Of a stretch of DNA of 64,000 nt, positions 10,437-11,046 are shown piece by piece. Where the stretch lies: contig NC_134468.1 in the NCBI RefSeq assembly GCF_964194025.1, forward strand, positions 34,348,001-34,412,000. The letters are read 5' to 3'. Each line of letters begins with the position of its first letter. Position 1 is the first letter of the stretch. The position numbers and the translations under genes were made by a program. The DNA is from Convolutriloba macropyga (lineage: Eukaryota). The notes under the pieces were generated by a model, which ran no database searches, had not been told where the DNA came from, and saw only the letters and a program-made list of their open reading frames with translations.

Positions 10437-11046
10437 ATGGTTGAGGCAATGTTTGAACGAACACCTGAATTCTTTCGACAGTTTCAAAAGAAATTTCACT
10501 AATTTATCTGCAGAAGTGAGCCAATATTTGATACAAAAGAAATCAACAAGAGTTTTGCTTACAGTTTGCATGAGAATAACAGCTTTTGTATAATAAAAGA
10601 ACAACACTATCATGTTATTGCAGCTTTGGATCAAGTAACAGAGGCTTTCAAAAAAAACTCTTCAAAACCCTATTCTATACCTTGCCTATACACATGTTTC
10701 AGACTTCTACTCCACAAAACACAATCTGTCAACATCACTTTTCACGGTGAAATTTTTGAGAAGTTGCAGCAAGCAGTCATTTACAATCACCAACATCAGC
10801 TAGATTTATATAGCTCCAAAAGAAAGCTTCCAAATATCTTTGAACTGGAGACTGTCAAAGAGAATGTTCAAGTTCAAACTGATTTCATACCAACTTGTAC
10901 TTTTTAACCGATTTTTAAGTATTTATCAGAACAGTTCTTATGCAGAATTTTCAAAAATTATTGATATTATTATTAGTGGATATGGCTCCCTGAATGTTGA
11001 TAATGAGAATGTAAAATGTAACTTTCGATTTGAATTAAAAAATTAA
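10437..11046 (+). pseudogene. Uncharacterised Polinton gene with an HUH-like motif (KEQHYHVIA); premature stop at 10500 and probable frameshift ~10905
   Basis: ATG 10437 is in frame with ORF 10566..10907 across a single TAA; may continue in ORF 10840..11046. Confidence 0.5.

What the first reader, a model, noticed from the sequence alone, without database searches (positions are those of the whole stretch)
10437..11046. Disrupted ORF next to the left TIR carries an HUH-like motif: a possible Rep/NS1-type nickase
Seen: reading through one TAA gives MVEAMFERTPEFF..FH*FICRSEP..SFCIIKEQHYHVIAALD..KPYSIPCLYTCFRLLLHK. HYH followed by hydrophobic residues fits HUH motif II, and Tyr residues ~20-25 aa downstream could supply motif III. 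Established: HUH endonucleases nick hairpin origins in parvoviruses and rolling-circle replicons. Inference: it could resolve the terminal hairpins. Caveat: a 3-residue motif is weak evidence, and no SF3 helicase domain follows.
Basis: inference. Interest (0 to 1): 0.7.

Follow-up and report, generated by a model that had tools for sequence, protein, structure and literature searches.

The report
Tyrosine-less Rep-fold gene in Polintons
This is a broken copy of a conserved gene of virus-like Polinton transposons; its protein is predicted to fold like the DNA-nicking enzymes of rolling-circle plasmids and keeps their likely metal-binding histidines but has no conserved cutting tyrosine, so it is probably a DNA-end-binding helper rather than a hairpin-cutting enzyme.

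Summary
The ORF is real. It is a broken copy (stop at codon 22, frame break near 10,905) of a ~200-aa gene in a 12.9-kb Polinton/Maverick with no pPolB. HYH is conserved across homologues 22-57% identical (H57 80/83, H59 78/82), with H45, C51 and C83. A confident AlphaFold model matches HUH Rep nuclease domains first in every fold search (pMV158 RepB Z 6.1, top 8 rows all Reps), though scores are modest. The nickase call does not hold well. There is no helicase, and three pPolB-encoding families carry the same gene. Loop orientation is fixed in 63/64 ends of this type, and the ends are ordinary AGTAGT with a 6-bp duplication. Best reading: a nicking-dead, metal-binding Rep-derived DNA-binding accessory protein. 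Boldest reading left open: a Cys/His-nucleophile nickase. Side finding: pPolB-less families share their ends with pPolB-encoding families.

The parts
10437..11046 (+). HUH/Rep-fold gene, broken in this copy (stop at 10500-10502; frame break near 10900-10907); natural unbroken copies encode 202-208 aa
10479..10757 (+). Predicted HUH Rep-like domain (residues 15-107)
   Evidence: model of residues 12-107 of a natural copy aligns over RepB 4-127, Z 6.1, rmsd 3.6, 86 residues
10569..10613 (+). Likely metal ligands H45, C51, H57, H59 (HUH = H57-Y58-H59 at 10605-10613)
   Evidence: 76/81, 75/82, 80/83, 78/82; RepB ligands are H39, D42, H55, H57 (PMC5030251)
10683..10712 (+). Near-invariant C83 and helix 84-92, the inferred motif-III helix, with no conserved Tyr
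   Evidence: C83 in 83/84; position 90 is Tyr in 9/84; helix; register inferred
9986..10434 (+). Upstream companion ORF (frameshifted here; starts inside the TIR); PC4-like by recalled resemblance only
   Evidence: upstream of the gene in all 6 families; no PDB hit and no PC4 family hit in Pfam
8712..10015 (+). Left TIR, starting AGTAGT
8722..8959 (.). Left subterminal hairpin, starting about 10 nt inside the end
   Evidence: -134 kcal/mol, z -25.6
20288..21605 (-). Right TIR with mirror hairpin (21343-21599)
8706..8711 (+). 6-bp target-site duplication TATGTC (again at 21606-21611)
11151..11657 (-). Adenain-type protease
   Evidence: PF00770, E 8.7e-6
11575..12900 (-). 441-aa ORF, major capsid protein by size and position (label recalled)
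   Evidence: no Pfam hit; conserved in all 6 families
13317..14213 (-). Penton-like ORF (label recalled)
   Evidence: no Pfam hit; conserved
14173..15045 (-). rve integrase
   Evidence: PF00665, E 4.9e-6, below the curated cut-off
16338..16883 (-). A32-like packaging ATPase
   Evidence: PF04665, E 1.5e-6

Best explanation
The gene encodes a conserved ~200-aa Polinton accessory protein that is predicted to have the fold of a plasmid/CRESS Rep (HUH) nuclease domain and keeps the likely metal-binding histidines but has no conserved catalytic tyrosine, so it likely binds the element's DNA ends without cutting them. SHOWN: purifying selection; a fixed place between the upstream ORF and the protease in 6 Polinton families of this genome (3 with pPolB, 3 without); conserved H45/C51/H57/H59/C83; no conserved Tyr; no helicase. 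PREDICTED: Rep-type fold for residues 15-107, plus a separate C-terminal helix-helix-strand-strand part. INFERRED: descent from a pE194/pMV158-like or CRESS Rep; conversion of the catalytic Mn site into a structural His/Cys (Zn-type) site; a role as origin- or ssDNA-binding factor at the TIR during protein-primed strand-displacement replication, as with the polyoma/papillomavirus origin-binding domains. The 12.9-kb element would get pPolB in trans from the 19-kb family that has the same ends. The copy in the window is dead.
For: Fold: pLDDT 90 and 88. VIA top 10 of the full model and top 8 of the domain model are all HUH Reps. Foldseek TM(query) is 0.57-0.58 to RepB and nanovirus M-Rep. The named top rows in BFVD are parvoviral NS1 or Rep proteins. 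Sequence echo: profile match over the H..HUH segment, P 0.001; 2 of 57 members hit Pfam Rep_OBD weakly, best E 0.079; a RepB-family HMM scores members above their reversed sequences (best 10.2 vs 2.8 bits). No Tyr: position 90 is Tyr in 9/84 and position 116 is Tyr 51/Phe 27 of 84. Clusters of 65, 91, 66 and 174 member sequences have Phe at 116 and no Tyr at 90. Not the replicase: it is present in pPolB-encoding families (4+2+4 copies). Ends are AGTAGT with a 6-bp duplication, and the last ~10 nt are unpaired, so the 3' end cannot self-prime. 63 of 64 ends have one loop orientation. Precedent for an HUH domain turned structural: PMC6668415.
Against: All fold scores are below the tools' own significance levels (Z at most 6.1, against 4.5 for the best unrelated row; no Foldseek E at or below 0.001), and the HHalign probability is only 21.5%. 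HHalign's low-confidence tail aligns Y116 with RepB Y99, which conflicts with the register read from the structure ranges. No coordinates were available, so ligand geometry and the Tyr register rest on range ends and spacing. Polyoma/papilloma domains lost all motifs, whereas here four or five ligands are kept for a long time, which also fits catalysis. 3 of 10 resolved perfect-arm ends show an inverted loop. DNA binding itself is untested.
Confidence: 0.55

Rival explanations
1. An active but non-canonical HUH nickase: the metal site is kept and the near-invariant Cys83 (or a His) acts as nucleophile in place of Tyr, nicking ssDNA or hairpin DNA near the ends for excision, resolution or end exchange.
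For: C83 in 83/84 homologues, the best-conserved residue, at the start of the inferred motif-III helix. The three His are kept. MobM of pMV158 nicks with a His (PMC5863519). Loop inversions occur in 3 of 10 perfect-arm ends. Families appear to have exchanged ends.
Against: No Cys-nucleophile HUH enzyme is known to me (recalled). Three His and two Cys are well explained as Zn ligands. There is no YxxK/YLxH basic residue pattern, and 63 of 64 ends of this type show no flip-flop.
Confidence: 0.17
2. Not an HUH descendant: a His/Cys Zn-binding protein with a common ferredoxin-like sheet, perhaps a transcription or packaging factor, whose HYH strand resembles Rep by convergence.
For: Z at most 6.1, in the range the tool calls a common arrangement; FAD oxidase domains reach Z 4.5. 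No significant sequence hit in Pfam, PDB or phage records.
Against: Reps fill the top ranks of three libraries and two programs. The His pair sits on the expected strand, with a third His after the preceding strand as in RepB. The first strand K-F-(R/K)-(Y/F)-F echoes RepB K-A-R-Y-F.
Confidence: 0.17
3. One reading: a canonical Tyr-type Rep/NS1 nickase that resolves the terminal hairpins and lets the pPolB-less element replicate parvovirus-style with host polymerase.
For: HUH fold and motif. Long subterminal hairpins in 5 of 6 gene-bearing families. The element lacks pPolB. Y116 is Tyr in the quoted copies of all 6 families here, and HHalign can pair it with RepB Y99.
Against: Y116 lies beyond the Rep domain in the structure ranges and is Phe in 27/84, including large clusters. 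There is no helicase and no flip-flop in 63/64 ends. The hairpin is not terminal. The gene is also in pPolB-encoding families. Hairpin and gene do not strictly co-occur.
Confidence: 0.08
4. A leftover fragment of pPolB or its terminal-protein domain.
For: The element lacks pPolB and the ORF lies near the end where pPolB sits in related families.
Against: It is a self-contained ~200-aa ORF that coexists with full pPolB genes on the opposite strand; pPolB queries do not hit the window.
Confidence: 0.02

Closest known systems
pMV158 RepB / pE194-pMV158 Rep family (Pfam Rep_OBD PF01719; PDB 3dkx, 8amu)
   Same: Best fold match (Z 6.0-6.1); ~200 aa with an N-terminal HUH-type domain, a second C-terminal part and no helicase; a third His shortly before HUH (H45 vs H39)
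   Different: No Tyr at the Y99 site and no YLxH; Cys where RepB uses an acidic ligand (inferred); extra invariant C83; first helix reduced to a loop; C-terminal part is helix-helix-strand-strand, not RepB's helical hexamer domain (recalled); in an animal Polinton
CRESS-DNA virus Reps (nanovirus 6h8o, circovirus 7kii/8h56) and Replitron transposases (PMC10288648, passages)
   Same: Same domain fold, Z 5.5-6.0
   Different: They keep motif III YxxK, and CRESS Reps have an SF3 helicase; both are absent here
Parvovirus NS1 / AAV Rep
   Same: HUH fold (Z 3.3-3.6); host element has palindromic ends
   Different: No helicase, no conserved Tyr, hairpin not at the very end, no flip-flop in this family, integrase-type 6-bp duplication
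Polyomavirus LT / papillomavirus E1 origin-binding domains (PMC6668415, passages)
   Same: HUH domain without catalytic Tyr in an animal dsDNA virus; likely functional analogy (Z 3.0-3.7)
   Different: They lost all three motifs and are fused to a helicase; this protein keeps the His residues and stands alone
Mriyavirus HUH endonuclease (PMC11253617, passages) and HUH-bearing PLV clusters (bioRxiv 2026.06.19.733378, passages)
   Same: HUH gene in a double-jelly-roll dsDNA virus lineage
   Different: Those keep all motifs, lack pPolB and are thought to use rolling-circle replication; this gene is Tyr-less and sits in rve-integrase Polintons with or without pPolB
Polinton/Maverick (adintovirus) elements (PMC8097293, PMC8502044, passages)
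   Same: TIRs, 6-bp duplication, rve integrase, A32 ATPase, adenain protease
   Different: This family has no pPolB; no HUH-like gene was seen in the passages read (it could be one of the unnamed 'Adintoc' genes; supplements not seen)

Membership tests
HUH Rep endonuclease | Rep-type five-stranded fold | tested here: met
   Top 8 VIA rows are Reps, best Z 6.1, rmsd 3.6, 86 aligned; TMq 0.57-0.58; scores modest
HUH Rep endonuclease | Motif II H-U-H on a strand | tested here: met
   H57 80/83, aromatic 58, H59 78/82; strand 58-63
HUH Rep endonuclease | Third metal ligand | tested here: inconclusive
   H45 76/81 aligns with the RepB H39 region; C51 and C83 are further candidates; no coordinates to measure
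HUH Rep endonuclease | Motif III catalytic Tyr (YxxK/YLxH) on the helix after strand 4 | tested here: not met
   Inferred site is Tyr in 9/84; no column above 70% Tyr; Y116 51/84 with Phe 27
HUH Rep endonuclease | Motif I hydrophobic first strand | tested here: inconclusive
   Strand 20-25 resembles RepB's first strand, but with low alignment confidence
HUH Rep endonuclease | ssDNA nicking with covalent 5' adduct | not testable with these tools
   needs biochemistry
Parvovirus NS1/AAV Rep | Fused SF3 helicase | tested here: not met
   Best 150 of 239 library hits are at most 318 aa; a convergent protease follows the gene in all 6 families; the search of longer proteins was blank but weak
Parvovirus NS1/AAV Rep | Self-priming terminal hairpin with flip/flop isomers | tested here: not met
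   About 10 unpaired terminal nt; 1 of 64 ends of this type inverted, though 3 of 10 perfect-arm ends are
Polinton/Maverick | TIRs, AG-type ends, 6-bp duplication | tested here: met
Polinton/Maverick | rve integrase, packaging ATPase, protease | tested here: met
Polinton/Maverick | Own pPolB gene | tested here: not met
   No hit in the window or in 2 sister copies with pPolB queries; the element is a pPolB-less derivative
Polinton/Maverick | Double-jelly-roll major and single-jelly-roll minor capsid proteins | not tested
   Labels from size and position only; no Pfam hit; not folded

The most novel reading that the evidence does not exclude
A clade of animal Polintons carries a Rep-derived enzyme that nicks DNA with a cysteine (or histidine) instead of tyrosine. 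It acts at the subterminal hairpins to process or swap element ends, letting polymerase-less satellite Polintons adopt the termini of whichever pPolB-encoding helper family is active.
Probability: 0.15. Interest if true: 0.88.

Novelty: new variant of a known kind. Interest (0 to 1): 0.55.

Why it matters
Polinton replication and excision have never been worked out biochemically, and most accessory genes have no annotation. A conserved Rep-fold protein gives a small, soluble, testable candidate for the end-binding factor. It links plasmid/ssDNA-virus replicons to pPolB dsDNA elements of animals. It may be an intermediate (metal site kept, Tyr lost) on the path that produced the polyoma and papilloma origin-binding domains. 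If C83 proved catalytic, it would be a new HUH chemistry. The pPolB-less families that share ends with helper families suggest a satellite-helper system among Polintons.

Tried and rejected
Sequence searches gave nothing significant: Pfam, PDB by sequence and profile, phage records, plasmids with one homologue. IMG/VR and metagenome scans found no relative, so the context of homologues outside this genome is unknown. The ESM Atlas lead 'caspase' (score 0.90, below the recognition level) was rejected: it did not recur in any fold search, and a second homologue gave no hit. The search of longer proteins for a helicase fusion was blank but weak. No RNA holder was listed. Complex prediction (homodimer with Zn) was not available, so oligomerisation is untested, and the C-terminal part was not folded alone. 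The PC4 label for the upstream ORF was not confirmed. One short query for that ORF was taken off-frame and is not relied on; the in-frame query from the 19-kb family is used. The 'flip' pattern in the script was faulty, so unchanged orientation there was read from the strands of end and loop. Monophyly of the three pPolB-less families was not resolved by six gene trees; family A was missing from two of them. Not-in-print searches: 'Polinton'+'HUH' (43; 32 papers, 20 listed), 'polinton'+'inactivated Rep' (83; 0). None of the listed titles or passages read describes this gene. Subscription papers and supplements were not seen.

Full report
OBSERVATION. The quoted translation is at 10437 (+), with a stop at codon 22. 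The frame ends at 10907, and about 45 further codons run in another frame to 11046, so this copy has two breaks. It lies in a 12,894-bp element (8712-21605) with ~1.3-kb TIRs, AGTAGT ends and a 6-bp duplication. The element encodes an adenain protease, an rve integrase and an A32-like ATPase. pPolB queries hit neither the window nor 2 sister copies. It is a pPolB-less Polinton/Maverick. The capsid, penton and PC4 labels are recalled, not from a call.

THE GENE IS REAL. The genome search scored 150 of 2372 candidates, all matching. HYH is in 20 of 20 top copies, and 10 of 19 other copies have a full 202-208 aa frame. Between families A and B, pS is 0.83 and pN 0.27. A profile found 239 library proteins at E 0.001 or better; the best 150 are at most 318 aa, and the full-length ones about 190-250 aa, so no helicase fusion was seen. 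In this genome I saw the gene in 6 families, always between the same upstream ORF and the protease. Three lack pPolB (A, B, C; 3, 3 and 1 copies tested) and three have a pPolB-like gene (19-kb family 4 copies, D 2, E 4). The 19-kb pPolB is recognised by 22-34% identity to PF03175-positive polymerases, not by Pfam itself. Seven of the 77 PF03175-type polymerase loci were checked over 20-30 kb each; none had the gene. It marks one Polinton clade and does not replace pPolB.

CONSERVATION. In 84 homologues (57 from alignment A2 plus 27 more near-full-length hits; shorter hits left out) H45 is in 76/81, C51 75/82, H57 80/83, H59 78/82 and C83 83/84, and residue 58 is Tyr, Phe or Trp in 80/83. Y116 is Tyr in 51 and Phe in 27. 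The best Tyr column in the protein reaches 70%. Clusters with 65, 91, 66 and 174 member sequences have Phe at 116 and no Tyr at 90, so the exchange is unlikely to be decay alone. The homologues are related and do not count as independent events.

FOLD. AlphaFold on a natural copy gave pLDDT 90. Foldseek ranked pMV158 RepB first in the PDB (E 0.04), and the named top rows in BFVD are NS1 or Rep proteins (best E 0.001). VIA's top 10 rows were all HUH Reps (Z 4.9-3.5). Residues 12-107 folded alone (pLDDT 88) gave Z 6.1, rmsd 3.6 over 86 residues to RepB, with 8 Reps ahead of the first unrelated row at Z 4.5 and TM 0.57-0.58. These scores are below the tools' significance marks; the case rests on unanimity of rank plus the motif. 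I recovered RepB from a genome scan (identical to 3dkx) with 23 relatives. The H..HUH segment aligns at P 0.001, probability 21.5%. A RepB-family HMM prefers family members to their reversals (best 10.2 vs 2.8 bits). RepB's metal ligands are H39, D42, H55 and H57, with Y99 catalytic (PMC5030251, passages). H45, H57 and H59 match these; C51 for D42 is my inference.

WHERE THE TYROSINE SHOULD BE. Residues 15-107 span RepB 4-127, so the whole Rep domain ends before the helix holding Y116. The motif-III helix is then 84-92, and by spacing RepB Y99 falls at about residue 90, which is Tyr in 9/84. HHalign's low-confidence tail instead pairs Y116 with Y99. Neither site is conserved as Tyr, so the canonical motif III is not met either way. 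I had no coordinates, so the register is inferred.

HAIRPINS. A 238-nt hairpin starts about 10 nt inside each end (z -25.6); the terminal bases stay unpaired, so the 3' end cannot self-prime as in AAV. Of 79 loop matches, 70 have one orientation, 4 are inverted and 5 are unresolved. For the loop type of this family it is 1 inverted of 64 resolved, and that one is in a tandem array of loose ends. For the perfect-arm type seen at the 19-kb family's end it is 3 of 10. Five of six gene-bearing families have a subterminal hairpin. Family D does not (z -1.65, one end), and one gene-less Polinton has an imperfect terminal fold-back (z about -6.5, crude shuffles).

MECHANISM. Most likely (0.55) the protein is a Rep descendant that lost its nucleophile, keeps a His/Cys metal site, and binds TIR or displaced single-stranded ends during protein-primed replication. 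The precedent is the polyoma/papilloma origin-binding domain (PMC6668415, passages). Family A would use the 19-kb family's pPolB, since their first ~95 nt are the same while their genes do not group together. Binding, metal identity and helper dependence are inferred. Rivals: a Cys/His-nucleophile nickase (0.17; MobM uses His, PMC5863519, passages), a convergent Zn protein (0.17), a canonical Tyr nickase (0.08), a pPolB fragment (0.02).

COMPARISON AND NOVELTY. It works like an HUH-derived origin-binding domain. It is not filed as an HUH endonuclease (motif III not met) or as NS1 (no helicase). Active HUH genes are known in mriyaviruses and some PLVs (PMC11253617 and bioRxiv 2026.06.19.733378, passages). 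I saw no such gene described for animal Polintons in passages of PMC8097293, PMC8502044, PMC11071296 or PMC11296320, or in search listings. Their supplements were not seen, and the gene may be an unnamed 'Adintoc'. PMC5714925, PMC10288648 and bioRxiv 2025.02.07.637071 were read as passages; the last mentions polB-less polinton-related variants in a figure legend. Two earlier AI notes of this scan reach similar readings; I saw them after my own conservation and fold tests, and they are not independent support.

VERDICT. Observation confirmed; HUH fold likely; nickase and hairpin-resolution roles not supported in the canonical form. New variant of a known kind, interest 0.55.

Noticed in passing
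window 8712-21605; L056-L063, L225-L233, L255-L273: Three multi-copy families (A 12.9 kb, B 14.1 kb, C ~14 kb) have the capsid, integrase and ATPase block but no pPolB (3, 3 and 1 copies tested). A's first ~95 nt equal those of a 19-kb pPolB family, although its genes do not group with that family in 4 of 4 trees that hold both. B's end matches an ~18-kb pPolB family, with paired changes in both hairpin arms. This looks like satellites that share or swap helper ends.
   Followed up: partly
L068-L071 (G000 C5:14775856-14788932, C13:47731566-47744582): 13-kb forms with the same ends carry pPolB and the Rep-fold gene but have lost the block from protease to ATPase, the mirror-image defect of family A.
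   Followed up: partly
L056, L059, L060, L063: In 4 of 4 19-kb copies the last ~290 codons of the pPolB-like region lie in a different frame at the same offset; intron or shared lesion not resolved.
   Followed up: no
L053 vs L054: The 19-kb family has unequal ends: one full perfect hairpin and one shortened imperfect hairpin shared by several copies.
   Followed up: partly
L214 (G000 C8:68329395-68331760): Tandem array of four isolated element ends separated by (TA)n; one has the hairpin loop inverted.
   Followed up: no
window 9986-10015 and 20288-20317: The TIR includes the start of the upstream ORF, so both ends carry the same promoter region and start codon pointing inward.
   Followed up: no
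window 32626-32715: Short inverted repeat whose arms begin AGTAGTAGTAGG, like a Polinton end.
   Followed up: no
window 34850-36100 (-) and 36113-37417 (-): A 416-aa ORF with weak C2H2 zinc-finger hits and an adjacent 434-aa ORF with no Pfam hit.
   Followed up: no
window 54035-55075 (-): 346-aa ORF with a weak fibronectin type III hit.
   Followed up: no
L072-L073 (G000 C95:5144-24780): A family-A copy enlarged to 19.6 kb by a ~6.8-kb insertion inside the integrase gene.
   Followed up: no
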